Virus record (IMG/VR): IMGVR_UViG_2877285697_000003
Location: 1 to 36,641 of that record
Length of the DNA: 36,641 nucleotides
Source of the DNA: a virus
Taxonomy: Duplodnaviria; Heunggongvirae; Uroviricota; Caudoviricetes
Strand: one strand, 5' to 3'
The first letter of the stretch is position 1. Each line of letters starts with the position of its first letter. The position numbers were made by a program, and so were the translations under genes. This document shows, in pieces, positions 1,428 to 26,675 of the stretch. A model generated the notes under the pieces. That model worked only from the letters and a program-made list of their open reading frames with translations, made no database searches and was not told the origin of the DNA.

Positions 1428-2123
1428 TGAGGTGTACTGGCAATAGCGGACACTACCATTTGTTCTTTTTTTTAAGCAGCCATCTGATGATATTTTTCCC
1501 TGAAGGCTGCCGGGGAGATATTCCCCAGACGAGAGTGACGACGCTGACGATTGTAGAAAATCTCAATGTATTCCCGTATTACTGAGATGGCTTCATCCCG
1601 GTTATTAAAACGATAGTGGCTCAGGCTCTCATTTTTCAGCGTTCCCCAGAAGCTTTCCATCGGAGCGTTGTCGTAACAGTTACCTTTACGCGACATTGAT
1701 GTTTTCAGACCAAACTGCTCCTGTATGACCCGGTAATCGTATGCGCAGTACTGTGAACCTCGATCAGAGTGGTGGATTAGCCCGGCAGGTGGGCGCTGGC
1801 TCCTGAGCGCCATAAACAGGGCTTTACCTGTCAGCTCTTTTGTCATGCGCTCTCCCATGGCGTAGCCGACAATTTCGCACGTATAAACATCTTTGATGCC
1901 AGCGAGGTACAACCATCCCTCCTGTGTGGCAACATACGTCAGGTCCGCCACCCAGACCTGATTTGGTGCTGTAGGAGCGAACGTCTGGTTCAGCAGATTT
2001 GGCGCAACTGGCAGATTGTGGTTCGGGTTCGTAGTCGCTCTGAACTTGCGTTTCTGCTTACAGCGTAGCCTTAGCTCCTTACGAAGACGTGCCAGTCGGT
2101 CACGACCAACGATGATGCCATTC
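1428..2123 (-). mobile_element. IS600 (IS3 family) 3' fragment, about 696 bp, cut by IS911
   Basis: Terminal sequence TGAGGTGTACTGGCAATAGCGGACACTACC identical to the ends of the other IS600 copies at 6335 and 17550; orfB coding identical to 6378-7196; homology stops exactly at the IS911 left end. Confidence 0.85.
1472..2123 (-). pseudogene. IS600 orfB transposase, N-terminally truncated (ORF continues artifactually into IS911 to 2149)
   Basis: 225-aa ORF identical to the C-terminal 217 residues of the 272-aa orfB at 6378-7196; lacks orfA and the first 55 codons of orfB. Confidence 0.85.
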
Positions 2124-2195
2124 TGAAGTGGCACACTGAATTTGGCCACCTGAACAGAGGTGATATGCTCACCTCAGAACAACACAGGTGCTCCA

Positions 2196-3364
<1,169 letters not shown>

Positions 3365-3566
3365 CCACTTCACAGTCCTCAATCGCTGGTTCCGTGACGG
3401 AAGGGGGCGTCGTGTTCACGTTATACGCTGGGAGCCTGAAACACAGCGGGTTATTTATCTGCGTGATGGTTATCCATATGAATGTTTCAGCCCGTTGTGG
3501 TTGTTCAGGCGTGATTTTGTGGAGTGTGAAGCGCCGCCGGAATGACGGCACGGTATATACGAAAAA

Positions 3567-3926
3567 TTACGTCGCCTTGCCCAGCGTAAAATCAAAGTGG
3601 ATGTCGTCATACGGGAATGACGTTCCGCGCTCGCTTTTTTCCAGTAAACCGTTGCTGATGAGTGCGGTCACGTCAGTATGCACGCTTTTTACATCACGTC
3701 CAACCAGGGCTGCAATTTTTCGGATGGACATTTCTCCGGCACCAGTCATTGCCATCAGAATGTCCATGCGTTTTGGTGTCAGTACCTTATGCATCATTTG
3801 CCAGTCAGGAAATGAAATAACGTTTTCTCTGGTTGCTTTTGCTCCGGTAGCTGCTTCCTGGAACGCAGACAGCACATCAGCCGTGAAATTATCCATTGAC
3901 TCGATTCGGATTGTTACGGTTCTCAT
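3567..3926 (-). CDS. Winged-helix HTH DNA-binding protein (about 119 aa from internal ATG; ORF track gives 151 aa)
   Basis: Helix-turn-helix-like segment ..EMSIRKIAALVGRDVKSVHTDVTALISNGLLEKSERG..; ATG at 3926 is 1 nt after the stop of the upstream 95-aa ORF (TGAcATG on the minus strand), suggesting a two-gene operon. Confidence 0.55.
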   Translation of the reverse strand: MRTVTIRIESMDNFTADVLSAFQEAATGAKATRENVISFPDWQMMHKVLTPKRMDILMAMTGAGEMSIRKIAALVGRDVKSVHTDVTALISNGLLEKSERGTSFPYDDIHFDFTLGKAT

Positions 3927-3927
3927 G

Positions 3928-4215
3928 TCAGATACCTCTGCGGATGGATTTAACGTCAGCCAGAAAATCAGCGAGCAGTTGTTCAATGGTGACAAAGCTG
4001 GTGCTGACTTCCTGACTACCAATGTGTTTGTGATCGCCTTTACCCCGTTCGTTGTCGTAACGCATCACACACATGCCATCAACGACATAAGCCATGCTGT
4101 ATTTGTAGTTGTGCTGGCTACCCAATACAGCAGGCTCCACTTCCCATATGCGGATTCGTATGTATTCAGATTCACCGAGATGACGGATGAACTGTTTATA
4201 CAGTCTGGATGGCAT
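3928..4215 (-). CDS. Hypothetical 95-aa protein, upstream partner of the HTH gene
   Basis: Complete ORF, stop codon 1 nt before the downstream HTH gene start; no family recognised by eye. Confidence 0.5.
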   Translation of the reverse strand: MPSRLYKQFIRHLGESEYIRIRIWEVEPAVLGSQHNYKYSMAYVVDGMCVMRYDNERGKGDHKHIGSQEVSTSFVTIEQLLADFLADVKSIRRGI

Positions 4216-4383
4216 TTAAAGCTTCCTCTGGTTCTTGTTGTAAACAATAACAACAAGGCTTCGCGTTGTCCACAGCTACAACATTTTGATATTGATTCTG
4301 CAAGTCCGGGACGTTACACTGTTCCGGCACCTTATAAAACGGGTGCCGGGATTTGCACCCCGGAATTGATCAAGGCGATATAC

Positions 4384-4405
4384 GACGCGCCAGCGTCTTT
4401 TTTAT
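4384..4405 (+). terminator. Hairpin plus T-run (GACGCGCCAGCGTC TTTTTTAT) inside the divergent intergenic region
   Basis: GC-rich inverted repeat followed by a 6-T run on the + strand, about 165 bp upstream of the Rha-like gene start; could be an attenuator or small-RNA terminator. Confidence 0.35.
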
Positions 4406-4569
4406 CGTCCACGCTCACGCACGCCAGAATTATGGTGGGCTGGGCAGGGGAGCCGAAAGGCTCGCCGGTTTCCTTGATCGCCGGTAGTGCAAACCCTGTT
4501 CAGTCCGCCACCAGCGAGATTTGCACCTCCGGTGGTGGAAGTATTTCACCGATCAAGGAGGCTGCCATT

Positions 4570-5301
4570 ATGGCTACGATCCCAGTTTCCCCATTCCTCA
4601 AAATCGAAGTCGTCAACGGTAAGGCCGTTACTACATCTCTTTTCGGATATCTCAAACTGTTGCGCCTTGCTGGTGTTCCGGGTTATATTTCTCGCGTTGC
4701 TGTAAATCCAGCAACCGGGCTTCGCATCCCGAAACATCACACAGGGCTGACACGCCATAAGCGTGTTTTTTTGTCTACGTACGTCTATTCAATGGCGGCT
4801 CAGATGGGAGCTTCTTCGGAAGCGCCGGTTTTCCCTTGTGTGTCCGGTAATGCGAATCCTGTCTGGGCTGCCACCAATCATGGTTTCGCATCCGTGGGTG
4901 GTAGCTGTAAAGCACACACACAAGGGGCTGTCACCATGACTACCACCACTACTCACCCATTCCTCAAAATCGAAGTCGTCAACGGCAAGGCCGTTATTTT
5001 CTCTTTGCATGTGGCCTGCTACTTTAAGCGCATGCACCAGAACATCGTCGACAAAATCGAGTATCTGAACTGCTCGCGCGAATTTTTTACCCGCAATTTC
5101 ATACCGGGTACTTACCACATCTATGACGACTCTCTGCGTGGTTATTACATCACCCTTGATGGTCTGATGATGCTTCAGCTTGGGTTAAGTCTGCGCACAA
5201 TGCGGTACTACGAGAGTTGCATTGAAGCGTTCCATGAGGCTGAAACCAGCCTGAATCATACCGCTTTCCGTCGTAATCAATGGGAGGCGCGTCATGTGTA
5301 A
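4570..5301 (+). CDS. Rha-family-like phage regulatory protein (C-terminal half Rha-like; alternative start at 4936)
   Basis: ATG at 4570 preceded by AAGGAGG; residues from 4936 (MTTTTTHPFLKIEVVNGKAVIFSL..YYITLDGLMMLQLGLS..IEAFHEAE) resemble Rha/antirepressor-type N-terminal domains; the motif PFLKIEVVNGKAV is encoded twice by a 39-bp direct repeat. Confidence 0.45.
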   Translation: MATIPVSPFLKIEVVNGKAVTTSLFGYLKLLRLAGVPGYISRVAVNPATGLRIPKHHTGLTRHKRVFLSTYVYSMAAQMGASSEAPVFPCVSGNANPVWAATNHGFASVGGSCKAHTQGAVTMTTTTTHPFLKIEVVNGKAVIFSLHVACYFKRMHQNIVDKIEYLNCSREFFTRNFIPGTYHIYDDSLRGYYITLDGLMMLQLGLSLRTMRYYESCIEAFHEAETSLNHTAFRRNQWEARHV

Positions 5302-5527
5302 TAACCATTATTCAGATACCACTGTCACGGTAATTAAAAACCTGATGGATGCGCTTATTGACATCTCTGTTATTGCAGACAGGGTGCATAAGCACGCCGC
5401 CACTGAAACAGAATATACCGGGGCTCTCGTTCCTCATTCACTGACTGTCATGCAAATTAGCGCCGACCAGGCGCTGGAAACAGCCAGCAAAATGCTCATG
5501 GCTGATGTGCAGGAGGTACGTCCATGA
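5294..5527 (+). CDS. Hypothetical protein (77 aa)
   Basis: ORF whose start overlaps the stop of the upstream gene and whose stop overlaps the next start (ATGA), i.e. translational coupling. Confidence 0.4.
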   Translation: MCNNHYSDTTVTVIKNLMDALIDISVIADRVHKHAATETEYTGALVPHSLTVMQISADQALETASKMLMADVQEVRP

Positions 5528-5748
5528 TTCGCCGCATCGTTAATTCTCTGTATCACCGATACAACCGTTGCCCCCGTGTGGGGCAGTGGTTTGCCACCAG
5601 CAACGGTCACGTTCTGCGGGTTTGCCTGGTCAGCACCGAAAACCAGAAAGTTGTGTGTGAATTACTGGGGCGTAGCTACACCATCAGTTACCCACTGGTG
5701 GTGTTTCAGTCCGGAAAAATGTTTAAACGCCTGGGAGGTGCTGTGTGA
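5524..5748 (+). CDS. Hypothetical protein (74 aa)
   Basis: ATGA overlap with the upstream ORF and GTGA overlap with the downstream ORF. Confidence 0.4.
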   Translation: MIRRIVNSLYHRYNRCPRVGQWFATSNGHVLRVCLVSTENQKVVCELLGRSYTISYPLVVFQSGKMFKRLGGAV

Positions 5749-6044
5749 ACTGTTTTCAGTTTGTGTGCGGAAGTGTTTTCGATAATCCGATTCAGCGCCT
5801 GATTATGTTGCGTGTTTGGATGTCGGGGTCTTCAGACGGGGAAGGTGAGAGAGTTATTGAGCACCAAGTGCTTGCCGATTTTTGTTGCTGTTCAAAACAA
5901 GCGATGTTCAGAGAAACCCTGGCCCTGGAAAGGGCGGGACATCTGCATATCCGAAAAATTGCAACGCTTACCATTGATGCAAAAGCCCGACTCCAGCCTG
6001 CCCGTGGTTACACAATTGTCATGCCGCGTAAGGAGGCTGTATGA
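5745..6044 (+). CDS. Hypothetical protein (99 aa, GTG start)
   Basis: GTG start overlapping the upstream stop; ATGA overlap with the next ORF. Confidence 0.4.
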   Translation: MNCFQFVCGSVFDNPIQRLIMLRVWMSGSSDGEGERVIEHQVLADFCCCSKQAMFRETLALERAGHLHIRKIATLTIDAKARLQPARGYTIVMPRKEAV

Positions 6045-6334
6045 GTCGTTATGCCCCCACACCGGAAGTTATGGCTATTGGTCAAATTAATATTTCCGGC
6101 AATGTCACACCGACAACCTGGTGGAAACATATCCAGCTACCCAGTGGGCGTCCGGATGCGACAGCCATTGCGCTGCTTTCAGAGATTGTTTACTGGTATC
6201 GCCCGACAGAAGTCAGGGATGAGCATACAGGGGCTTTACTGGGATATCGCAAGCGTTTTCAGGGTGACAAGCTGCAAAGAAGCTATCAGGCGTTTGCTGA
6301 GCAGTTTGGCTTTGGGAAAAGGGAAACCGCAGAT
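6041..6334 (+). pseudogene. Hypothetical gene, 3'-truncated by IS600 (stop codon supplied by the IS terminus)
   Basis: ORF runs straight into the IS600 end at 6335 (..GKRETAD then TGA from TGAGGTGTACTGG). Confidence 0.45.
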
Positions 6335-7365
6335 TGAGGTGTACTGGCAATAGCGGACACTACCATTTGTTCTTTTTTTAAGCAGCCATCTGATGGTATT
6401 TTTCCCTGAAGGCTGCCGGGGAGATATTCCCCAGACGAGAGTGACGACGCTGACGATTGTAGAAAATCTCAATGTATTCCCGTATTACTGAGATGGCTTC
6501 ATCCCGGTTATTAAAACGATAGTGGCTCAGGCTCTCATTTTTCAGCGTTCCCCAGAAGCTTTCCATCGGAGCGTTGTCGTAACAGTTACCTTTACGCGAC
6601 ATTGATGTTTTCAGACCAAACTGCTCCTGTATGACCCGGTAATCGTATGCGCAGTACTGTGAACCTCGATCAGAGTGGTGGATTAGCCCGGCAGGTGGGC
6701 GCTGGCTCCTGAGCGCCATAAACAGGGCTTTACCTGTCAGCTCTTTTGTCATGCGCTCTCCCATGGCGTAGCCGACAATTTCGCACGTATAAACATCTTT
6801 GATGCCAGCGAGGTACAACCATCCCTCCTGTGTGGCAACATACGTCAGGTCCGCCACCCAGACCTGATTTGGTGCTGTAGGAGCGAACGTCTGGTTCAGC
6901 AGATTTGGCGCAACTGGCAGATTGTGGTTCGGGTTCGTAGTCGCTCTGAACTTGCGTTTCTGCTTACAGCGTAGCCTTAGCTCCTTACGAAGACGTGCCA
7001 GTCGGTCACGACCAACGATGATGCCATTCTCTGCCAGCTCCGTCTGGAGCCGCCGGGTTCCATATGTTTCGCGAGTGCGGATATGTGCCACCTTAATCTC
7101 CAGTTTTAGCCGCTCATCACTTTGTTTTCTGTCTGAGGGTTCATGCTGTACCCAGTTGTAATAACCGCTCCTGGATACACCAAATACCTGACACATCGCT
7201 TCAATGGGAAATTGTTGTCGCCATTGTTCGATTAACGCGTATTTTTCAGCGACTCCTGTGCAAAATACGCTGTTGCTTTTTTTAATATATCTCGCTCAAG
7301 GCGAGCTTCATTTAACGCCTTACGCAGTTGCAGAATTTCAGATTCCAGTTCAGCCACCGTGCGGG
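6335..7365 (-). mobile_element. IS600 copy, 5'-truncated (about 1031 of 1264 bp; lacks IRL and first ~57 codons of orfA)
   Basis: Right terminus TGAGGTGTACTGGCAATAGCGG at 6335; identity to the complete copy (16287-17550) ends near 7365 inside orfA, where molR-like sequence begins. Confidence 0.85.
6378..7196 (-). CDS. IS600 orfB transposase (272 aa)
   Basis: Nearly identical to orfB of the complete IS600 at 16689-17507 (two substitutions); IS3-family catalytic core. Confidence 0.9.
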   Translation of the reverse strand: MCQVFGVSRSGYYNWVQHEPSDRKQSDERLKLEIKVAHIRTRETYGTRRLQTELAENGIIVGRDRLARLRKELRLRCKQKRKFRATTNPNHNLPVAPNLLNQTFAPTAPNQVWVADLTYVATQEGWLYLAGIKDVYTCEIVGYAMGERMTKELTGKALFMALRSQRPPAGLIHHSDRGSQYCAYDYRVIQEQFGLKTSMSRKGNCYDNAPMESFWGTLKNESLSHYRFNNRDEAISVIREYIEIFYNRQRRHSRLGNISPAAFREKYHQMAA

Positions 7366-8893
7366 AACGTGATCTGGCTCGCCAGTGGATTTTACAATGG
7401 CCGGAACATACGGCTAGTGCACTTATCCCTCTTGTCTTTACCAAACCCAGCGATAATAGCGAAGCCGCATTACTTGCCCTGCGTTTACTGTACGAACAGG
7501 GACATGGCGAATTGCTACAAACCGTGGCAAACCGCTGGCAGCGTACAGATGTATGGTCTGCCCTGGAGCAGTTGCTTAAACAGGGTCCAATGGACATTTA
7601 CCCGGCACGCATTCCAAAAGCCCCTGATTTCTGGCATCCGGCAATGTGGTCCAGGCCTTGACTTATCACTAATAATCAGCCTGTTACCGGTGACGCTCTG
7701 GAAATTATCGGCGAAATGCTGCGCTTTACCCAGGGGGGACGTTTTTATAGCGGGCTGGAACAACTGAAAACGTTCTGCCAGCCACAAACGCTGGCAGCTT
7801 TTGCCTGGGATCTCTTCACTGCGTGGCAACAAGCTGGTGCCCCCGCAAAAGACAACTGGGCATTTCTGGCGTTAAGTCTCTTTGGTGACGAAAGCACGGC
7901 ACGGGATCTGACGACACAGATCCTCGCCTGGCCACAAGAAGGCAAATCTGCCCGTGCTGTCAGCGGCCTGAACATCCTTACCCTGATGAATAATGATATG
8001 GCGCTGATACAGCTGCATCATATATCGCAACGGGCTAAATCCCGCCCCTTACGTGATAACGCGGCGGAATTTCTTCAGGTGGTCGCAGAAAATCGCGGGC
8101 TAAGCCAGGAAGAGCTAGCGGACAGATTAGTCCCAACCCTGGGCCTTGATGATCCGCAGGCGTTGAGTTTTGATTTTGGTCCCCGGCAGTTTACCGTTCG
8201 CTTCGATGAAAACCTCAACCCGGTTATCTTTGATCAGCAAAACGTTCGCCAGAAAAGCGTTCCCCGGTTGCGCGCCGATGACGATCAACTGAAAGCGCCC
8301 GAGGCACTGGCCCGACTAAAAGGGCTAAAAAAAGATGCTACTCAGGTGAGCAAAAACCTGCTCCCGCGTCTTGAAGCTGCCCTAGGTACCACCCGACGCT
8401 GGTCGCTGGCAGATTTTCATTCTCTGTTTGTTAATCATCCCTTTACCCGTCTGGTTACCCAGCGATTAATATGGGGGGGTTATCCGGCAAATGAACCGCG
8501 TTGTTTACTCAAAGCCTTTCGTGTGGCCGCAGAGGGGGAGTTCTGCAATGCGCAAGATGAGCCAATTGACCTGCCTGCGGACGCTCTGATTGGCATTGCC
8601 TACCCGTTAGAAATGACAGTAGAAATGCGCAGTGAATTTGCACAGCTTTTTGCCGATTACGAAATTATGCCGCCTTTTCGCCAGTTGTCGCGCCGCACGG
8701 TGCTGCTCACACCTGACGAGTCAACCAGTAACAGCCTGACTCGCTGGGAAGGTAAATCCGCTACCGTTGGGCAGCTTATGGGAATGCGATACAAAGGCTG
8801 GGAGTCAGGTTATGAGGACGCATTTGTCTATGACCTGGGTGAGTACCGGCTGGTCCTTAAGTTTTCACCCGGTTTTAACCACTACAATGTTGA
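7366..8893 (+). pseudogene. molR: molR/yehI-family (DUF4132-type) gene fragment: 5' part deleted at IS600, in-frame stop at 7659-7661, 3' end interrupted by IS1
   Basis: Two same-frame ORFs (7359-7661 and 7716-8915) separated by one stop codon; translation recalled as the large WGR/DUF4132 protein encoded next to metG in E. coli; the final codons MLPTY-stop come from the IS1 terminus. Confidence 0.6.
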
Positions 8894-9659
8894 GGTAATG
8901 CTGCCAACTTACTGATTTAGTGTATGATGGTGATTTTAAGGTGCTTGCGTGGCTTCCATTTCCATCAGATGTCCTTCCTGCTCCGCTACTGAAGGCGTGG
9001 TGCGTAACGGCAAAAGCACTGCCGGACATCAGCGCTATCTCTGCTCTCATTGCCAAAACATGGCAACTACAGTTCACTTACACCGCCTCTCAGCCCGGTA
9101 CGCACCAGAAAATCATTGATATGGCCATGAATGGCGTCGGATGTCGCGCCAGTGCACGCATTATGGGCGTTGGCCTCAACACGGTTTTACGTCACTTAAA
9201 AAACTCAGGCCGCAGTCGGTAACCTCGCGCATACAACCGGGCAGTGATGTGATTGTCTGCGCTGAAATGGACGAACAGTGGGGCTACGTCGGTGCTAAAT
9301 CACGTCAGCGCTGGCTGTTTTACGCGTATGACAGGATACGGAGGACGGTTGTGGCGCACGTCTTCGGTGAACGCACTCTGGCCACACTGGAGCGTCTTCT
9401 GAGCCTGCTGTCGGCCTTTGAGGTCGTGGTATGGATGACGGATGGCTGGCCGCTGTATGAATCACGCCTGAAGGGAAAGCTGCACGTTATCAGCAAGCGT
9501 TACACTCAGCGCATTGAGCGACATAATCTGAATCTGAGACAACATCTGGCAAGGCTGGGACGGAAGTCACTGTCGTTCTCAAAATCGGTGGAGCTGCATG
9601 ACAAGGTCATCGGGCATTATCTGAACATAAAACACTATCAGTAAGTTGGAGTCATTACC
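8894..9659 (+). mobile_element. IS1, full length but with a 2-bp deletion that frameshifts insA
   Basis: Ends GGTAATGCTGCCAACTTACTGAT.. and ..ATCAGTAAGTTGGAGTCATTACC; insA region TCTCATTGCC--AAAACATGG differs from canonical TCTCACTGCCGTAAAACATGG, so the InsA frame is broken; insB is intact. Confidence 0.9.
9141..9644 (+). CDS. insB: IS1 InsB
   Basis: 167-aa translation recognised as IS1 InsB (..[54 protein letters not shown]..). Confidence 0.9.
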
Positions 9660-15683: not shown

Positions 15684-16289
15684 ATGCAGGCAGGTCACCA
15701 GAGTGACGCGGATATTTATATTTATGACGAGATTGGTTTCTGGGGTGTTACGGCGAAGCAGTTTATCAGTGATCTGAATGCACTGGGCGATATCACCCAC
15801 ATTAATCTCCATATCAATTCACCGGGTGGCGATGTCTTTGAAGGCATCGCCATTTTTAATGCACTGAAAACACATGGTGCGTCCATTACCGTTTATGTCG
15901 ACGGTGTGGCGGCATCAATGGCGTCGGTCATTGCGATGGTGGGAAACCCGGTCATTATGCCGGAAAACACCTTCATGATGATTCATAAACCATTTGGCTT
16001 TACGGGCGGTGATGCGGAGGACATGCGCACCTATGCCGACCTGCTCGATAAAGTTGAGGCGGTTCTGTTACCCGCTTATGCACAGAAAACCGGGAAAACC
16101 ATCGATGAAGTTGCTGCCATGCTGGCGGATGAGACCTGGATGTCCGGTGCCGAATGTCTGGCACATGGATTTGCTGATCAGGTGACGCCAGCCGTTAAGG
16201 CAATGGCATGTATTCAGTCAAAACGTACAGAGGAATTTAAAAAGATGCCGGAATCCATTCGAAACATGATTACTCCGCCACGCAACTGA
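15684..16289 (+). CDS. ClpP/S14-family prohead protease; stop codon provided by the IS600 terminus
   Basis: Translation (..HINSPGGDVFEGIAIFNALK.. SMASVIAMVG.. MIHKP..) has ClpP-like Ser/His motifs; start set at ATG 15684 just after the portal stop (ORF track start 15579 overlaps portal); TGA at 16287-16289 is the first 3 nt of the IS600 IRL. Confidence 0.8.
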   Translation: MQAGHQSDADIYIYDEIGFWGVTAKQFISDLNALGDITHINLHINSPGGDVFEGIAIFNALKTHGASITVYVDGVAASMASVIAMVGNPVIMPENTFMMIHKPFGFTGGDAEDMRTYADLLDKVEAVLLPAYAQKTGKTIDEVAAMLADETWMSGAECLAHGFADQVTPAVKAMACIQSKRTEEFKKMPESIRNMITPPRN

Positions 16290-16350
16290 GGTAGCCTGAG
16301 TTTAACGGACACTCCTTCCTGAAATAGAATGGCATCAGAAGGAGCTAATA

Positions 16351-16653
16351 ATGAGCAGAAAAACCCAACGTTACTCTAAAGAGTTCAAAGCCGAAGCTGT
16401 CAGAACGGTTCTTGAAAATCAACTTTCGATCAGTGAAGGCGCTTCCCGATTATCCCTTCCTGAAGGCACTTTAGGACAATGGGTTACCGCCGCCAGAAAA
16501 GGGCTCGGTACTCCTGGCTCCCGCACGGTGGCTGAACTGGAATCTGAAATTCTGCAACTGCGTAAGGCGTTAAATGAAGCTCGCCTTGAGCGAGATATAT
16601 TAAAAAAAGCAACAGCGTATTTTGCACAGGAGTCGCTGAAAAATACGCGTTAA
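16351..16653 (+). CDS. IS600 OrfA
   Basis: 100-aa ORF MSRKTQRYSKEFKAEAVRTV.. with HTH and leucine-zipper-like C-terminus, as in IS3-family OrfA proteins. Confidence 0.9.
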   Translation: MSRKTQRYSKEFKAEAVRTVLENQLSISEGASRLSLPEGTLGQWVTAARKGLGTPGSRTVAELESEILQLRKALNEARLERDILKKATAYFAQESLKNTR

Positions 16654-16688
16654 TCGAACAATGGCGACAACAATTTCCCATTGAAGCG

Positions 16689-17507
16689 ATGTGTCAGGTA
16701 TTTGGTGTATCCAGGAGCGGTTATTACAACTGGGTACAGCATGAACCCTCAGACAGAAAACAAAGTGATGAGCGGCTAAAACTGGAGATTAAGGTGGCAC
16801 ATATCCGCACTCGCGAAACATATGGAACCCGGCGGCTCCAGACGGAGCTGGCAGAGAATGGCATCATCGTTGGTCGTGACCGACTGGCACGTCTTCGTAA
16901 GGAGCTAAGGCTACGCTGTAAGCAGAAACGCAAGTTCAGAGCGACTACGAACCCGAACCACAATCTGCCAGTTGCGCCAAATCTGCTGAACCAGACGTTC
17001 GCTCCTACAGCACCAAATCAGGTCTGGGTGGCGGACCTGACGTATGTTGCCACACAGGAGGGATGGTTGTACCTCGCTGGCATCAAAGATGTTTATACGT
17101 GCGAAATTGTCGGCTACGCCATGGGAGAGCGCATGACAAAAGAGCTGACAGGTAAAGCCCTGTTTATGGCGCTCAGGAGCCAGCGCCCACCTGCCGGGCT
17201 AATCCACCACTCTGATCGAGGTTCACAGTACTGCGCATACGATTACCGGGTCATACAGGAGCAGTCTGGTCTGAAAACATCAATGTCGCGTAAAGGTAAC
17301 TGTTACGGCAACGCTCCGATGGAAAGCTTCTGGGGAACGCTGAAAAATGAGAGCCTGAGCCACTATCGTTTTAATAACCGGGATGAAGCCATCTCAGTAA
17401 TACGGGAATACATTGAGATTTTCTACAATCGTCAGCGTCGTCACTCTCGTCTGGGGAATATCTCCCCGGCAGCCTTCAGGGAAAAATATCATCAGATGGC
17501 TGCTTAA
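16689..17507 (+). CDS. IS600 OrfB transposase
   Basis: 272-aa ORF; differs from the copy at 6378-7196 by two substitutions (F->S and D->G in ..VIQEQSGLKTSMSRKGNCYGNAPME..). Confidence 0.9.
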   Translation: MCQVFGVSRSGYYNWVQHEPSDRKQSDERLKLEIKVAHIRTRETYGTRRLQTELAENGIIVGRDRLARLRKELRLRCKQKRKFRATTNPNHNLPVAPNLLNQTFAPTAPNQVWVADLTYVATQEGWLYLAGIKDVYTCEIVGYAMGERMTKELTGKALFMALRSQRPPAGLIHHSDRGSQYCAYDYRVIQEQSGLKTSMSRKGNCYGNAPMESFWGTLKNESLSHYRFNNRDEAISVIREYIEIFYNRQRRHSRLGNISPAAFREKYHQMAA

Positions 17508-17550
17508 AAAAAGAACAAATGGTAGTGTCCGCTATTGCCAGTACACCTCA

Positions 17551-21440: not shown

Positions 21441-21748
21441 CAATGGGTAATGACTCCAACTTACTGATAGTGTTTTATGTTCAGATAATGCCCGATGACC
21501 TTGTCATGCAGCTCCACCGATTTTGAGAACGACAGTGACTTCCGTCCCAGCCTTGCCAGATGTTGTCTCAGATTCAGATTATGTCGCTCAATGCGCTGAG
21601 TGTAACGCTTGCTGATAACGTGCAGCTTTCCCTTCAGGCGTGATTCATACAGCGGCCAGCCATCCGTCATCCATACCACGACCTCAAAGGCCGACAGCAG
21701 GCTCAGAAGACGCTCCAGTGTGGCCAGAGTGCGTTCACCGAAGACGTG
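21441..21748 (-). mobile_element. IS1 fragment (right-end ~308 bp with the 3' part of insB), cut by IS911
   Basis: Begins with IS1 terminus GGTAATGACTCCAACTTACTGATAGTG; ORF 21461-21763 encodes the C-terminal 95 residues of InsB; homology ends exactly where IS911 starts. Confidence 0.85.
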
Positions 21749-21756
21749 TGAAGTGG

Positions 21757-22925
<1,169 letters not shown>

Positions 22926-23282
22926 TGGAGCACCTGTGTTGTTCTGAGGTGAGCATATCACCTCTGTTCAGGTGGCCAAATTCAGTGTGCCACTTCACCT
23001 CCGCAAATAACGGATGGCGTAGTTTTACACTGAGAAATGAAAGGGATTTGAAAAGAAAAAAACGCAAAAGCGGGCGAAACGATATATACAGTAAGGAAAG
23101 CACTCTATCCAACAAACCACCCACAGTTAATCGGAATAAAAGCAGAGTGCTTATGAATGATCGCACGCCCGAAGGTTAGTATTTCTGCACAGCAATTTTG
23201 CAAAAAAAGGCGATCATTCATAACTTAAACGTCTTTCAGTCACTCCGGGATTTCCCATCATCGCAGACTGAAAGACTCTGAC

Positions 23283-23357
<75 letters not shown>

Positions 23358-23360
23358 ATA

Positions 23361-23436
<76 letters not shown>

Positions 23437-23438
23437 GC

Positions 23439-23515
23439 TGGCCCACCACCGAGGACTCGAACCTCGCACCGTCAACTTAGAAGGTTGATGCTCTATCCGG
23501 ATGAGCTAGTGGTGG
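23439..23515 (-). tRNA. tRNA-Arg (anticodon UCU), atypical C1:G72 acceptor end
   Basis: 77 nt: acceptor CCACCAC/GTGGTGG, D-arm GCTC..GAGC, anticodon stem TCAAC/GTTGA with loop CTTCTAA, T-arm CGAGG TTCGAGT CCTCG, discriminator G plus CCA. Confidence 0.65.
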
Positions 23516-23516
23516 T

Positions 23517-23593
23517 TGGTGGCCCTTGCTGGACTTGAACCAGCGACCTGGCGATTATGAGTCGCTCGCTCTGACCAACTGAGCTAAAGGGCC
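23517..23593 (-). tRNA. tRNA with CAU anticodon (Ile2/Met type, ileZ-like of lambdoid phages)
   Basis: 77 nt: acceptor GGCCCTT/AAGGGCC, D-arm GCTCAGTTGGTCAGAGC, anticodon loop CTCATAA, T-loop GGTTCAAGTCC, 3' ACCA. Confidence 0.75.
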
Positions 23594-23679
23594 GGAGGCA
23601 GAATAATAACCATATGTCATCACATCTGCAAACTCATCTGACCACCAGCGTGTTTAACGTCCTGTACCGTTTTTCAGGC

Positions 23680-23706
23680 ATAAAAAACCCGCCCGGAGGC
23701 GGGTTT
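23680..23706 (-). terminator. Rho-independent terminator downstream of Q (tR'-like)
   Basis: On the minus strand AAACCCGCC tccg GGCGGGTTT followed by TTTATG, about 90 bp downstream of the Q stop and upstream of the tRNA cluster. Confidence 0.5.
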
Positions 23707-23792
23707 AAGCTGTGTGGCGAAGCAACCACTCTTAACAGAATATCCCGTTTTTTACGTACGTAAAATATTTTCTAGAAAGTCGCCCCTTACCA

Positions 23793-24173
23793 TCAGGGAT
23801 GTTCAATATATTTGTCCATTTCTAACCGGACACCCAACATCATCAACATTCCTTCCACCACCCCCTCGGCTTTTTGTAGCTTCTTTCCTATATAACCATC
23901 TGAGCATCCATGCTTCCGCGCCAGCGTCATGAATGTCATCCCAAACACGTAGTAGTCAACCAGCAAGTCATGTAGATCGTTGTTGTTCCGGTTAAGGCGG
24001 GCCATACACCCACATATAACCATCGCGTCATCGTCACAGCATTGCGGGCGGGATTTTACTTTTGAAGGGATTAATCCCTTAAAACCGGCAGCAATGGACG
24101 ACCAGGTCACATCCTCATGATTATTAGCCACCCACGCGCCCCAGCGCTCAAGAACCTGCTGAATATCACGCAT
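23793..24173 (-). CDS. Q: Late-gene antitermination protein Q-like
   Basis: Position after ninH and before terminator plus tRNAs; cysteine-rich segment (..[20 protein letters not shown]..) consistent with Q-family zinc-binding antiterminators; start set at the internal ATG 4 bp after the ninH stop. Confidence 0.65.
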
Positions 24174-24369
24174 CACTGTCTTTACCCCTGTCCCATCCAC
24201 GATGAACAATCAGAACACCATCAACAATGGCGTGCCCTTTGCCCTCTTTATCTTCAGCATATTTTCTTACCGTGGCGCGATTACAGTTCAGCATTCGTGA
24301 AACTTCGGTCATATTACCTCGTGTCTGGATAAGCAGTTCCGGTATCGTTTGAATTTTGACGCTCATCAA
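24166..24369 (-). CDS. ninH: NinH-like protein
   Basis: 67-aa translation (..[56 protein letters not shown]..) resembles lambda NinH as recalled. Confidence 0.7.
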
Positions 24370-24460
24370 ATACTCTCCGGTTCGGTGATTTTTATCCCGG
24401 GCTTTCCACCAGGGACATAATGATCGCGCACAAGCCAGGGCAAAACAAACTCATGGCGCA

Positions 24461-24718
24461 TCAGCGCAGCGCCTCCTGCACCAGTTTTTCAAACTTTCCG
24501 ACTCTGGTTTCCAGCTCTGCCACACAGTCCACCAGCTCATCTACTGCTTTCTGTGCGCGATGCTTCGCCTGCATCAGTTCCCGAAGCGCGGGTACCATAT
24601 CTTTACGGATAGCGTCTTTTGTTATGCCCGTTTTTTCGAGTTGTTCAGCATGACGCAGCATTTCCTGCGCGTGTTTACGCAATTGTTCAGGGGTAAAAGT
24701 CATTGTCTGGTTGTTCAA
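24461..24718 (-). CDS. Hypothetical 85-aa coiled-coil protein
   Basis: ORF whose start overlaps the stop of the upstream helicase gene by 4 nt; helical heptad-like composition. Confidence 0.45.
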   Translation of the reverse strand: MNNQTMTFTPEQLRKHAQEMLRHAEQLEKTGITKDAIRKDMVPALRELMQAKHRAQKAVDELVDCVAELETRVGKFEKLVQEALR

Positions 24719-26106
24719 AAGAAACGCTCCATCTTACTGCTGTCAGTTCGTTTATTACTGTATCTGCGCGGATTGCCGGGCTTCATGGGAGTGGAAAGCA
24801 CCCGTGCACTTTCCTGGTCCACAGGCAGAAAATGTCCGTTATAAAAACGCCGGTAAATCGTTCCCAGAGAACCGTTACGTTGTTTCGTGATATTGATTTC
24901 TGCGATGCCCCTGGCCTGCGTATCCGGGTTGTACACTTCATCCCTGTAAAGCATCAGAATGATGTCTGCATCCGCCTCTATTTCTCCGGAATTTTTCAGG
25001 TCTGAGTTCATGGGACGTTTATTGGGTCTGGACTCCACACCGCGGGAGAGCTGGCTCAGCGCAATCAACGGAAAACCACCGGATTTTGCCAGGCCTTTAA
25101 GCCCCTTTGAGATTTCACCCACGGCAAGGTCATGACGCCCCGTGGTTCGGGTTTTTATCAGCCCGAGATAATCAACCACCACCAGCGCCGTTTCCGGATA
25201 TTTAATCAGGTGGTGTTTCGTTGTTGCGCATATCTCATCAATGGCCAGGTTCGCCTGGTCCACCATCCAGATATTGCGCCCGGTCATCCGCCCCACCCCT
25301 TGTGAGAAACGCGCCCAGTCTTCATCTTCAAAGTGAGCCACAGATTTCAGGCGTGATACTGGCATCCCTCCAGCCGCAGACACCATACGTTCACCAATCT
25401 GGATGTTCGCCATCTCCATGGTGAACAGAAGCACACCATGCCCCTGCTCAGTCACCTTGTCGATGATGTCCAGCGCAAGTTCGGTTTTCCCCATCGAAGG
25501 ACGGGCGGCAATGAATACCAGGTCTCCGGGCTCCATACCGCCTGTTTTTGCGTCCAGTTCATCAATACCGGTCATCAACGTCCTGGATTTCTCCAGCCCC
25601 TGATTCCGGCATTCAACACGCTCAACCACTTCCGGAAGCACATCATCAATATGTACCGGCTGAATGACGCCCTTTCCTGTCGACAGTGTGACCATCATGT
25701 TCTGCGCATCCTTCAGGGCATCTTCAGCTGCTTCACAGGTATGCGCATCACGTAATTTCTGCAGCGCCTCATTCAGTGTTTTTTCTGCATCGCGCAGTGC
25801 GGCATTGCGCCGCAACGCTGCAACATAGTGCTCCAGTGAAGACTTCACCCAGGTTTTACGCCCGGTATCAGTAATCACCGGGGCAAGTTCCGGCATCTCA
25901 TTACACAACAGCACGGGGTCAATCACTCCTGAAACACGGGCCTGTCTGCAGATGCCTGTATAGATATCCTGATACGCTCGTACAGAAAAAACGTCCGCTG
26001 GCAGTGTGGCCAGAATATCCATCACTTCAGGATCTGCTCCGCGCAGAAAGAACGCGCCGATGACAGCGCCTTCAAGGTCATCGTTACGCCATACTGGAGT
26101 TGTCAT
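24715..26106 (-). CDS. DnaB-family replicative DNA helicase (phage-encoded)
   Basis: 463-aa translation with Walker A (..ARPSMGKTELALD..) and RecA-like C-terminal domain; ATGA overlap with the upstream DnaC-like gene. Confidence 0.85.
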   Translation of the reverse strand: MTTPVWRNDDLEGAVIGAFFLRGADPEVMDILATLPADVFSVRAYQDIYTGICRQARVSGVIDPVLLCNEMPELAPVITDTGRKTWVKSSLEHYVAALRRNAALRDAEKTLNEALQKLRDAHTCEAAEDALKDAQNMMVTLSTGKGVIQPVHIDDVLPEVVERVECRNQGLEKSRTLMTGIDELDAKTGGMEPGDLVFIAARPSMGKTELALDIIDKVTEQGHGVLLFTMEMANIQIGERMVSAAGGMPVSRLKSVAHFEDEDWARFSQGVGRMTGRNIWMVDQANLAIDEICATTKHHLIKYPETALVVVDYLGLIKTRTTGRHDLAVGEISKGLKGLAKSGGFPLIALSQLSRGVESRPNKRPMNSDLKNSGEIEADADIILMLYRDEVYNPDTQARGIAEINITKQRNGSLGTIYRRFYNGHFLPVDQESARVLSTPMKPGNPRRYSNKRTDSSKMERFF

Positions 26107-26564
26107 GCAGCCACACCTCTGATACGAGAACGGTAACTGGGCCAGTTAAACGACAACCAGTTGCGTCCCCCGTCTGTGATCCTGTCGGCAATTCGGGGAC
26201 TGATGAACGCCCACAACTCTTCCGGTGAGAGGTTACTGATCAGAATGGTGGGCAAGATACTTTCGTACCTGGCGTTGATAATTTCCTGCAAAATAGCCAT
26301 TTCAGCCGCGCTGCCAAACTGAACGCCAACTTCGTCGATGATCAGCAAATCCATTGACGCATAACGCTCAATAACTTCATCCGCTGTTTTTTCGCTGTCA
26401 TTCCGCCAGCAATTTTTCACAGCACGGGTAAGGCGCATCACGTCGGTGATCTCCACACTGGCCAGATAGTTACGGATGATGTGTTTTGCCATAGCCACAG
26501 CCAGATGATTTTTTCCGGTACCACAACTGCCGGTCATAACAAGACTGGTACCGTTCTCCAGCAT
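26103..26564 (-). pseudogene. DnaC/IstB-like AAA+ helicase loader, 5'-truncated
   Basis: ORF starts directly at the Walker A region (..LVMTGSCGTGKNHLAVAMA.. DLLIIDEVG..) with no N-terminal domain; truncation abuts the IS10-like element. Confidence 0.6.
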
Positions 26565-26675
26565 ATCTGGCCAGTTCTCCGCATAGCGGCGACAGGCCGC
26601 AAGATTTCTGGCTGCGTCAGGATTAACCTCCAGATAATTATCAAACTCGCAGTCCCGAAAACGCAGGGCAATTCC

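What the first reader, a model, noticed from the sequence alone, without database searches (positions are those of the whole stretch)
5294..6337. Translationally coupled operon of four small unknown genes, the last truncated by IS600
Consecutive ORFs (5294-5527, 5524-5748, 5745-6044, 6041-6337) overlap by 4 nt (ATGA or GTGA), and the first overlaps the stop of the Rha-like gene. None is recognisable by eye. This is the early-operon architecture of an integrative element; IS600 has removed the 3' end of the last gene and everything downstream.
Basis: seen in the sequence. Interest (0 to 1): 0.45.

Follow-up and report, generated by a model that had tools for sequence, protein, structure and literature searches.

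The report
IS-truncated early operon of prophage remnant
These four overlapping small genes are real, but they are the ordinary tail of a lambda-like prophage's early operon, running from an antisense-RNA-controlled antirepressor gene into the phage's DNA-replication initiator, which an IS600 insertion has cut after codon 98.

Summary
ORFs 5294-5527, 5524-5748, 5745-6044 and 6041-6337 exist. They overlap by ATGA/GTGA, each has a GGAGG Shine-Dalgarno site, and intact relatives show purifying selection (dN/dS 0.03-0.31 for ORF2-4). They are separate genes, not pieces of one frameshifted gene.

Window 3374-6334 is 99.87% identical to a lambdoid prophage of E. coli CFSAN029787.
- ORF4 is the first 98 of 330 codons of the O-like replication initiator. 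IS600 starts at 6335 and supplies the stop codon, splitting the initiator's helix-turn-helix. The putative iteron origin lies downstream and is lost.
- ORF3 is a 99-aa winged-helix protein that sits immediately upstream of an initiator gene in every relative examined.
- ORF2 is a 74-aa SH3-like barrel, probably a distant DUF4222 (RgdR-type) relative.
- ORF1 is a 77-aa protein of unknown function.

Just upstream lie two IsrK + C4 antisense-RNA units. The C4 loop is complementary to the ribosome-binding site of the Rha-like gene that heads the chain, and loop and target co-vary across relatives.

"Everything downstream removed" is wrong. The loader 3' part, DnaB helicase, Q region and tRNAs sit inverted at 23282-26675; only about 1 kb is missing.

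This is an ordinary IS-scrambled prophage remnant of low interest.

The parts
4327..4403 (+). IsrK-type sRNA, unit 1, with its intrinsic terminator (hairpin 4384-4397 plus T-run). Putative promoter TTGATT-N17-TACACT at 4292-4320.
   Evidence: Rfam RF01394, 63.4 bits against a gathering score of 50. Terminator-like site. The promoter was read from the sequence and is conserved in relatives.
4428..4515 (+). C4-type antisense RNA, unit 1. Its hairpin-2 loop (4466-4480) is complementary to the SD region 4550-4564 of the truncated first Rha-like copy (ATG 4570).
   Evidence: Rfam RF01695, 83.5 bits against 45. 15-nt complementarity.
4696..4771 (+). IsrK-type sRNA, unit 2, with terminator hairpin 4749-4767. 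Putative promoter TTGCGC-N17-TTATAT at 4660-4688.
   Evidence: Rfam RF01394, 62.2 bits. Terminator-like site. Sequence.
4788..4878 (+). C4-type antisense RNA, unit 2. Its loop (4832-4843) is complementary to 4916-4927, which overlaps the SD of the Rha-like gene.
   Evidence: Rfam RF01695, 74.2 bits. 12-nt complementarity. Loop and target co-vary across 9 units.
4936..5301 (+). Rha-like (antirepressor-type) gene, 121 aa, heading the overlapping chain. RefSeq annotates a longer 'ash family protein' from 4657 that runs across the RNA genes.
   Evidence: Pfam Phage_pRha E=1e-6; phrog_995/518. SD and ATG are conserved in five aligned units.
5294..5527 (+). ORF1, 77 aa, function unknown. Member of phrog_5146. 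Its N-terminal domain is shared with a 154-aa protein of an E. coli O157 integrative element.
   Evidence: There is no Pfam, NCBIfam, PADLOC or PDB match, and no tblastn match in 50,697 phage records.
5524..5748 (+). ORF2, 74 aa: an N-terminal helix plus a five-stranded SH3-like barrel. Member of phrog_1153. Probable remote DUF4222 relative.
   Evidence: AF2 pLDDT 81. hhalign against DUF4222 gives probability 64%, E 6.7e-5. 6 of 15 family members weakly hit Pfam DUF4222. A true DUF4222 gene occupies the same position in Serratia, Pantoea and Klebsiella. dN/dS 0.11-0.31.
5745..6044 (+). ORF3, 99 aa with a GTG start: a winged helix-turn-helix protein with the conserved motif FCCCSKQAMFKE. It always lies immediately upstream of a replication-initiator gene.
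   Evidence: phrog_4617 positions 3-93, E 5e-27. 45 stand-alone homologues across Enterobacterales. AF2 pLDDT 77 with generic wHTH fold matches. Contexts. dN/dS 0.04-0.08.
6041..6337 (+). ORF4': codons 1-98 of a 330-aa O-like replication initiator. The stop codon TGA (6335-6337) comes from the IS600 end.
   Evidence: phrog_270. 100% identical to L002 8142-8435.
6335..7366 (-). IS600 fragment: 1032 of 1264 bp, lacking the orfA-proximal end. It abuts the 3' part of the core gene yehI at 7367.
   Evidence: Self-BLAST against the full copy at 16287-17550. Ends. yehI.
24457..26675 (-). Displaced, inverted continuation of the same replication module: the 3' part of the IstB/DnaC-like loader (26103-26564), the DnaB-like helicase (24715-26106) and an 85-aa gene. 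It is cut at 26675/26676 by an IS4-type DDE-transposase element.
   Evidence: 99.3% identical to L002 9451-11669. Pfam IstB_IS21, DnaB_C and DDE_Tnp_1.

Best explanation
The four ORFs are the distal cistrons of the early-right operon of a lambdoid prophage from the phiP27/Stx-phage mosaic family. They survive as a 2961-bp fragment (3374-6334) between an IS911-like element and IS600.

Shown:
- They are separate, conserved protein genes, packed stop-over-start, each with its own GGAGG site.
- The chain starts at a Rha-like antirepressor-type gene. In intact relatives it continues without a gap into the replication module (O-like initiator, DnaC/IstB-like loader, DnaB-like helicase) and on to Q.
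- ORF4 is the first 98 codons of that initiator. IS600 cut it inside its helix-turn-helix. The C-terminal domain is no longer attached, and neither are the direct repeats in the central linker of the initiator gene.
- Directly upstream of the Rha-like gene sit two IsrK + C4-family RNA units. Each C4 loop is complementary to the Shine-Dalgarno region of the next ORF, and loop and target co-vary among relatives.

Inferred:
- As in P1/P7 immI, N15 and P4, the C4 RNA blocks ribosome binding at the head of the chain.
- Because every downstream gene starts on the previous stop codon, loss of translation there would silence the whole chain through loss of coupling and Rho polarity. That chain comprises Rha-like, ORF1, ORF2, ORF3 and, in intact phages, the replication genes.
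- The linker repeats are the replication origin (ori), by analogy with lambda, so the initiator fragment is dead.
- ORF3 is a small DNA-binding partner or regulator made together with the initiator.
- ORF2 is a DUF4222-like small barrel protein and ORF1 is an accessory protein. Neither has a known biochemical role.
- In this window the module has no cI/cro/PR region, so it is probably silent or only self-regulated.
For: Identity and context:
- 99.87% identity over 2961 bp to the E. coli CFSAN029787 prophage.
- The annotated order in intact relatives is cI, cro, Rha, ash, three small genes, replication protein, ATP-binding loader, replicative helicase, Q, tRNAs, lysis.

Real genes: conserved lengths, overlaps and SD sites, no stops or indels, and low dN/dS.

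ORF4:
- It matches phrog_270.
- The alignment of initiators shows variable N-domains and a shared C-domain.
- Iteron-like repeats sit in the linker of every initiator and differ with N-domain type. The type found here lies at L002 8625-8721, beyond the cut at L002 8435.

ORF3: wHTH model and fold hits. It lies directly upstream of an initiator in all 15 further ORF3-containing loci inspected, from seven genera plus one metagenome contig.

ORF2: SH3-like model, weak DUF4222 links and positional equivalence.

RNA head:
- Rfam hits at 62-84 bits against gathering scores of 45-50.
- The same RNAs lie upstream of the operon in all seven E. coli or phage relatives that carry ORF2.
- Loop-SD complementarity of 12-15 nt, co-varying over at least six specificities.
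- The Gifsy-1 isrK-orf45-anrP system, with demonstrated AUGA coupling, is the experimental precedent (PMC4825925).
Against: - No expression data exist. Coupling, Rho polarity and C4 action are all inferred by analogy.
- Each gene has a strong SD of its own, so independent initiation is possible.
- In intact phages, PR transcription, possibly antiterminated, could override C4 control of the replication genes.
- ORF3 homologues in Enterobacter and Salmonella occur without any IsrK/C4 unit. The replication part of the chain therefore does not depend on that control in general.
- The ORF2-DUF4222 link is weak. The window protein itself has no Pfam hit, and the hhalign probability is only 64%.
- ORF1 has no functional clue.
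- RNA duplex energies for whole IsrK against the leader were not better than shuffles.
Confidence: 0.7

Rival explanations
1. ORF3 is the functional analogue of lambda CII / P22 C1 / YdaT: a lysis-lysogeny transcription activator that merely sits next to the replication genes, not a replication accessory.
For: In Enterobacter (L013-L015) and Salmonella (L012) prophages, the ORF3 homologue is the only gene between cro and the initiator. That is exactly the cII/c1 position. It is about 100 aa and has an HTH. It occurs with three unrelated initiator N-domain/iteron types, which argues against an iteron-specific partnership.
Against: It has no sequence similarity to Phage_CII or any Pfam regulator family. 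The fold is a winged helix, unlike the all-helical CII (the CII structure is from my own knowledge). In E. coli it lies more than 3 kb from cro, so a PRE-type promoter acting back on cI is implausible. It overlaps the initiator start by 4 nt in nearly all contexts.
Confidence: 0.3
2. One reading: an early operon of a generic integrative element, whose downstream part was deleted outright by IS600.
For: An integrase gene lies at 75-1361. The IS600 junction at 6334/6335 is real. The sequence beyond the IS fragment is the unrelated core gene yehI.
Against: The rest of the replication module, Q-region remnants and the tRNAs are present in the window, inverted, at 23282-26675. The element is a lambdoid prophage. 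Only about 1 kb is unaccounted for.
Confidence: 0.1
3. The four ORFs are fragments of one larger frameshifted gene, or ORF1 and ORF2 are non-coding spacer with chance ORFs.
For: ORF3 matches only the N-terminal 93 of 223 positions of a PHROG annotated 'replication initiation protein'. ORF1 and ORF2 show weaker third-position bias than ORF3 and ORF4.
Against: The same separate ORFs occur in all intact relatives. Homologues are stand-alone proteins of 74-105 aa down to 49-55% identity. dN/dS is below 0.35 for ORF2 in 21 pairs. The ORF3 profile shows no similarity to the initiator. ORF2 gives a confident folded model.
Confidence: 0.02

Closest known systems
P1/P7 immI (c4-icd-ant) and N15 immA (cA-icd-ant) antisense-RNA-controlled antirepressor operons
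   Same: There is a C4-family RNA (Rfam RF01695) at the head of a rightward operon. Its loop is complementary to the ribosome-binding region of the next ORF, and an antirepressor-type gene follows. N15 cA DNA matches the window's C4 unit 2.
   Different: There is no separate icd gene; the targeted SD belongs to the Rha-like gene itself. Each C4 is preceded by an IsrK-type RNA with its own terminator. The operon does not end after the antirepressor. It runs through three small genes into a lambdoid replication module.
Gifsy-1 isrK-orf45-anrP-isrJ locus (Hershko-Shalev et al. 2016, PMC4825925)
   Same: IsrK RNA (RF01394), then a conserved-nucleotide leader equivalent to CI/C4 RNA, then an antirepressor. 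AUGA stop-start coupling is demonstrated there.
   Different: The Gifsy-1 transcript is about 910 nt, ends at isrJ and lies downstream of antQ. Here the unit is duplicated, lies in the early-right operon and continues into ORF1-ORF3 and the replication genes.
Lambda O / P22 gp18-type replication initiators with the origin inside the gene
   Same: A two-domain protein with a variable N-terminal DNA-binding domain, iteron-like repeats and an A/T-rich stretch in the central linker, and a conserved C-terminal domain, followed by loader and helicase genes.
   Different: It belongs to phrog_270, not the lambda O family (phrog_391/678 score only weakly). Only codons 1-98 remain in the window.
DUF4222 / RgdR (EHEC OI-51 prophage regulator of LEE type III secretion)
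   Same: ORF2 shares its small size, a predicted SH3-like barrel, the W..G..V.V...Q.V...Y..S/P..F pattern, and a position immediately upstream of replication genes. The RgdR-like gene in L008 overlaps a RepA helicase gene.
   Different: ORF2 does not reach the Pfam DUF4222 threshold, has an extra N-terminal helix and lacks the RGD motif. Its family is tiny, with 22 representatives in 1.84 billion proteins.
P4 CI-RNA immunity over the alpha (replication) operon
   Same: An RNA of the C4/CI clan sits upstream of replication genes, with upstream and downstream complementary target sequences (the P4 comparison is made in PMC4825925).
   Different: P4 is a satellite with a primase-helicase. Here the host element is a lambdoid prophage with cI/cro immunity as well.

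Membership tests
Lambdoid O-type replication initiator (ORF4) | Profile match to a phage replication-initiator family | tested here: met
   phrog_270: E 1.3e-12 for the 98-aa fragment and 1.2e-77 for the full-length relative.
Lambdoid O-type replication initiator (ORF4) | Iteron array / origin inside the gene, and a C-terminal domain followed by loader and helicase genes | tested here: not met
   These features are present in intact relatives. They lie downstream of the IS600 cut, so they are absent from ORF4' in the window. The gene is a truncated, non-functional member.
Winged helix-turn-helix DNA-binding proteins (ORF3) | H1-(beta)-H2-turn-H3-wing topology | tested here: met
   AF2 model with pLDDT 77: helices 15-26, 40-44 and 51-63, strands 67-73 and 86-91. 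All top Foldseek hits are wHTH proteins, though the best E-value is only 0.017.
Winged helix-turn-helix DNA-binding proteins (ORF3) | Sequence-specific DNA binding | not testable with these tools
   No target site was identified. ORF3 occurs with three different iteron types.
Lambda CII / P22 C1 family (ORF3) | Homology to Phage_CII | tested here: not met
   No Pfam hit at E<=1 other than a weak HTH_Crp_2 match. Only the gene position matches, in L012-L015.
DUF4222 (ORF2) | Pfam PF13973 match above threshold | tested here: not met
   The window protein has no hit. 6 of 15 relatives give weak hits, best E 0.028.
DUF4222 (ORF2) | Profile-profile similarity and equivalent genomic position | tested here: inconclusive
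   hhalign gives probability 64%, E 6.7e-5 over 42 columns, against a four-sequence DUF4222 alignment. True DUF4222 genes occupy ORF2's slot upstream of ORF3 homologues.
C4 antisense RNA (Rfam RF01695) control module | Covariance-model match above the gathering score | tested here: met
   83.5 and 74.2 bits against 45.
C4 antisense RNA (Rfam RF01695) control module | Loop complementary to the RBS region of the downstream gene, with co-variation | tested here: met
   12-15 nt complementarity ending 6-9 nt before the ATG. Nine units with at least six loop/target specificities all match their own target.
C4 antisense RNA (Rfam RF01695) control module | Repression of downstream translation or transcription in vivo | not testable with these tools
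   Needs reporter fusions or Northern blots.
Translationally coupled operon | Stop-start overlaps conserved across relatives | tested here: met
   ATGA/GTGA overlaps are conserved in L001, L002 and L004-L007 and in other genera.
Translationally coupled operon | Downstream translation depends on upstream translation | not testable with these tools
   Each gene also has its own strong SD. Dependence has been demonstrated only for orf45-anrP in Gifsy-1.
IS600 (IS3 family) | 1264-bp element with TG...CA imperfect terminal repeats and an orfA/orfB frameshift transposase | tested here: met
   The full copy at 16287-17550 is 1264 bp with ends TGAGGT...ACCTCA. The homologous copy in L002 is annotated as an IS3-family transposase with a programmed frameshift. 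The name IS600 itself rests on my own knowledge of its length and protein sequences.

The most novel reading that the evidence does not exclude
In this E. coli/Shigella prophage lineage, a P1/P4-type RNA immunity unit (IsrK + C4) may govern the phage's replication genes as well as an antirepressor. It would do so through one unbroken chain of stop-start-coupled cistrons. Within that chain, ORF2 (DUF4222-like barrel) and ORF3 (triple-Cys winged helix) would be previously unrecognised accessory factors of the initiator. That would amount to a second, RNA-based layer of replication immunity grafted onto a lambdoid phage.
Probability: 0.2. Interest if true: 0.45.

Novelty: new member of a known kind. 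Interest (0 to 1): 0.2.

Why it matters
This matters mainly as annotation.
- It turns four 'hypothetical' ORFs in an IS-scrambled Shigella/EIEC-type prophage remnant into a defined picture: a dead replication initiator and three conserved accessory genes, all behind a C4/IsrK riboregulator.
- It suggests that the RefSeq 'ash family protein' calls here are translations across two sRNA genes.
- It records that small DUF4222-like and winged-helix genes are recurrent, translationally overlapped neighbours of phage replication initiators across Enterobacterales. That gives a starting point for asking what RgdR-type proteins do for the phage itself.

None of this would surprise a phage specialist.

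Tried and rejected
- Pfam, NCBIfam and PADLOC gave nothing for ORF1-3 beyond noise.
- PDB sequence searches with profiles of ORF1 and ORF3 and with the full initiator gave nothing.
- An exhaustive HMM search with the ORF2 profile found only 22 proteins and no bridge to a known family.
- BFVD fold search for ORF2 gave only generic small barrels, DUF1653 or uncharacterised. The afdb50 library was unavailable.
- hhalign of the ORF3 profile against the initiator showed no paralogy.
- tblastn of ORF1 and of ORF3 against 50,697 phage records found no match.
- Literature searches for LvrA and for RefSeq accessions returned nothing relevant.
- An exact search for the IS600 junction in GTDB representative genomes found no match, so the source organism was not identified.
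- The idea that ORF3 co-varies with the initiator N-domain, and so binds its iterons, was rejected. ORF3 occurs with three N-domain/iteron types.
- Whole-IsrK duplex energies were not distinguishable from shuffles, so I rely on the short loop-SD complementarity instead.
- The simple promoter scan found no + strand site in 3300-6400. The IsrK promoters proposed here fall just below its threshold and remain inferred.
Full report
**Observation.**
The ORF list and the raw sequence confirm four consecutive + strand ORFs:
- ORF1, 5294-5527, 77 aa, ATG start.
- ORF2, 5524-5748, 74 aa, ATG start.
- ORF3, 5745-6044, 99 aa, GTG start.
- ORF4, 6041-6337, 98 aa, ATG start.

The junctions are ATGA, GTGA and ATGA. 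ORF1's ATG lies inside the last codons of the upstream Rha-like gene, as ATGTGTAA. Each start is preceded by GGGAGG, AGGAGG, GGGAGG or AAGGAGG at a distance of 4-7 nt.

**What the region is.**
- Window 3374-6334 is 99.87% identical to a prophage of E. coli CFSAN029787 (locus L002) and 91.6% identical to one in strain TUM1881 (L001).
- In those intact prophages the annotated order is: integrase, cI-like repressor, cro-like gene, Rha, 'ash family protein', three small hypotheticals, a 330-aa 'replication protein', an IstB/DnaC-like ATPase, a DnaB-like helicase, an 85-aa gene, antiterminator Q, a methyltransferase, tRNAs and lysis genes.
- This is therefore the early-right operon of a lambdoid prophage. 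Its relatives include phiP27 and several Stx-converting phages.
- The fragment is bounded on the left by an IS911-like element (2124-3374) and on the right by IS600.

**Are they real, separate genes?**
Yes. The same ORF lengths, 4-nt overlaps and SD sites recur in relatives that differ by 8-15% in DNA. There are no stops or indels.

| Gene | NG86 dN/dS |
|---|---|
| ORF1 | 0.10-0.86 (few substitutions) |
| ORF2 | 0.11-0.31 |
| ORF3 | 0.04-0.08 |
| ORF4 part | 0.03-0.05 |

Database homologues of ORF1-3 are stand-alone proteins of 74-105 aa. The 'one frameshifted gene' alternative is excluded.

Mosaic breakpoints among relatives fall at the gene junctions. Hits cover ORF1 alone, ORF2 alone, ORF1-2 or ORF2-4, and the short SD/stop-start boundary sequences are conserved even where the neighbouring gene is swapped.

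**ORF4.**
- It matches phrog_270, annotated 'replication initiation protein', and is codons 1-98 of the 330-aa initiator.
- Aligning seven initiators shows interchangeable N-terminal domains and a conserved C-terminal domain from about aa 205 to 330.
- Every initiator gene carries iteron-like direct repeats in its central linker, and the repeats differ with N-domain type.
- For the type found here, the repeats are ACGTYAWAACGGAACA x2 followed by TACAGAGATTAC x2-5 in a 35% GC stretch, at L002 8625-8721.
- By analogy with lambda, where the origin lies inside the O gene (my own knowledge), this is the probable origin.
- IS600 begins at 6335, equivalent to L002 8436, and provides the TGA stop. The cut falls within the predicted helix-turn-helix (weak HTH_36 match at aa 81-109) and upstream of the repeats.
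- ORF4' therefore lacks half its DNA-binding motif, the origin and the C-terminal domain.

**What happened downstream.**
The IS600 copy is itself truncated, with 1032 of 1264 bp left, and is fused to the core gene yehI. The rest of the module is not lost, however.
- L002 9451-11669 (loader 3' part, helicase, 85-aa gene) is present at 99.3% identity, inverted, at window 26675-24457.
- Q-region remnants follow, then four tRNAs at 23283-23593.
- That block ends at 26675/26676 against an IS4-type DDE transposase element.
- Only L002 8436-9450, about 1 kb, is missing from the window.

**ORF3.**
- There are 45 homologues, all about 100 aa, in Escherichia, Enterobacter, Klebsiella, Salmonella, Citrobacter, Serratia, Pantoea, Kluyvera and Yersinia. 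They share a near-invariant FCCCSKQAMFKE..LERAG motif.
- The AF2 model (pLDDT 77) is a winged helix. Foldseek returns only generic wHTH proteins such as TubR, CodY, Fur and ArsR types, with a best E-value of 0.017.
- In all 15 other ORF3-containing loci inspected, the gene lies immediately upstream of an initiator gene, usually with a 4-nt overlap. This holds whatever lies further upstream: cro, DUF4222, Bro-N or ORF2. It also holds whichever helicase system follows.
- It occurs with three different initiator N-domain/iteron types, so it is not an iteron-specific partner.
- In Enterobacter and Salmonella it occupies the cII/c1 slot directly after cro. This keeps a CII-like regulatory role open as a rival.

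**ORF2.**
- The AF2 model (pLDDT 81) shows an N-terminal helix and a five-stranded SH3-like barrel.
- The family is very small, with 22 hits among 1.84 billion representatives.
- A pattern shared with DUF4222 led to three tests. hhalign gave probability 64% and E 6.7e-5. Six of 15 members weakly hit Pfam DUF4222, which was the top family. In Serratia, Pantoea and Klebsiella a bona fide DUF4222 gene occupies exactly ORF2's slot upstream of the ORF3 homologue, with the same overlap.
- The only characterised DUF4222 protein is RgdR, a prophage-encoded activator of the LEE in EHEC (PMC10877973). An RgdR-like gene in an O157 integrative element overlaps a RepA helicase gene.
- ORF2's invariant C-terminal 'LGG' is encoded by the CTGGGAGGT that serves as the SD for the next gene. 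Part of its conservation may therefore be nucleotide-level.

**ORF1.**
It belongs to phrog_5146. Its 75-aa domain also forms the N-terminus of a 154-aa protein (phrog_2512) in the same O157 element. No other clue emerged.

**The head of the operon.**
- An Rfam scan found two tandem units directly upstream, each with an IsrK-type sRNA (4327-4403, 4696-4771) and a C4-family antisense RNA (4428-4515, 4788-4878).
- Unit 1 is followed by only about 25 codons of a Rha-like gene (ATG 4570). Unit 2 is followed by the complete one (ATG 4936).
- Sigma-70-like hexamers sit at the right distance from each IsrK 5' end. They were read from the sequence and fall below the scanner's threshold.
- The loop of C4 hairpin 2 is complementary to the SD region of the following ORF: 15 nt in unit 1 and 12 nt in unit 2.
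- In nine units from the window and six relatives, loop and target co-vary through at least six specificities, each matching its own partner.
- All seven E. coli or phage relatives that carry ORF2 have these RNAs upstream. The non-E. coli loci do not.
- This is the architecture of P1/P7 immI and N15 immA (my own knowledge). It also matches the Gifsy-1 isrK-orf45-anrP locus, where AUGA coupling and IsrK action were shown experimentally. The authors of that study equate IsrK with P4 seqA and the orf45 region with CI RNA (PMC4825925).
- The annotated 'ash family protein' ORF (4657-5301) and its Pfam Phage_ASH match (aa 36-98, nt 4762-4950) lie over IsrK unit 2's terminator and C4 unit 2.

**How it most likely works.**
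- Shown: the anatomy described above.
- Inferred: C4 RNA occludes the ribosome-binding site at the head of the chain. Because each following cistron starts on its predecessor's stop, untranslated RNA would be exposed to Rho. The antirepressor-like gene, ORF1-3 and, in intact phages, the replication genes would all then stay off in the lysogen. De-repression would open the whole chain at once.
- In this window the cI/cro/PR region is gone, the initiator is cut and the origin is lost. The segment is a replication-dead remnant whose remaining genes are at most self-regulated.

**Verdict.**
This is a correctly observed but ordinary feature: an IS-scrambled lambdoid prophage remnant of the Shigella/EIEC type. 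The additions here are:
- assigning ORF4 and ORF3;
- a tentative DUF4222 link for ORF2;
- the overlooked IsrK/C4 riboregulator;
- the correction that the downstream replication genes were displaced rather than deleted.

Noticed in passing
window 4657-5301 (also L001 8711-9376, L006 1815-2963): RefSeq 'ash family protein' and long 'Rha family' ORFs, and the Pfam Phage_ASH match (nt 4762-4950), run straight across IsrK and C4 RNA genes, including an intrinsic terminator. The Ash-type N-termini look like translations of conserved RNA genes rather than protein sequence.
   Followed up: partly
window 4289-4645 versus 4657-5030: The IsrK-C4-Rha start unit is partially duplicated in tandem. Unit 1 resembles the phiP27/L001 allele (80-92% identity). 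Unit 2 is a 71%-identical, heteroimmune allele with a different C4 loop and SD target. The same duplication is present in E. coli CFSAN029787, and L005 carries two complete units.
   Followed up: partly
window 3358-5301, + strand: A single frame stays open for 647 codons. It crosses the antisense of the TumE toxin-antitoxin genes, both RNA units and the Rha-like gene. That is unusually long for a chance ORF and is unexplained.
   Followed up: no
window 3567-4215, - strand: A TumE-family toxin (94 aa, Pfam TumE) and its HVO_A0114-type regulator are inserted on the opposite strand between the prophage's DUF4222 gene fragment and the IsrK/C4 units. This looks like a moron inside the early operon. 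It is absent from L001.
   Followed up: partly
window 1428-2124, 2124-3374, 6335-7366, 16287-17550, 21747-22997, 26676-27970: The area is dense with nested IS elements. An IS600 fragment (1428-2124, same end and orientation as the one at 6335) is interrupted by an IS911-like element. There is a second, inverted IS911-like copy, a full IS600, IS1 pieces at about 9357-9659 and 21446-21748, and an IS4-type DDE transposase cutting the loader gene. The prophage is split into at least three displaced blocks.
   Followed up: partly
window 5880-5893 (ORF3 residues 46-50): Three consecutive cysteines (FCCCS) sit in the turn before the predicted recognition helix of ORF3. They are invariant or nearly so across 37 homologues. 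This is unusual for a winged helix and hints at redox or metal sensitivity.
   Followed up: no
L008 2959-5351 (E. coli O157:H7 Z1766 integrative element): The order here is an ORF1-like domain protein (154 aa), a 77-aa gene, an RgdR-like DUF4222 protein with a TRGD motif, then a RepA-family helicase, all overlapping. This parallels the ORF1 / ORF2 / replication-gene order in the window, within an element that has an integrase and Icd-like annotations.
   Followed up: partly
L009/L010 4297-6584 (Serratia odorifera prophage): The initiator gene downstream of the ORF3 homologue is independently interrupted by a Mutator-family transposase. This is a second case of an IS hitting this gene.
   Followed up: no
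window 35105-35284 and 36041-36244: Rfam finds CssrB (chromosome-encoded Shigella sRNA B, 230 bits) and IS009. This supports a Shigella-lineage origin for the window.
   Followed up: no
window 5745-6041, residue 25 of ORF3: The window and CFSAN029787 carry Trp at a position that is Leu in at least 90% of homologues (RVWMSG versus RVLMSG). This is a lineage-specific substitution in helix 1.
   Followed up: no
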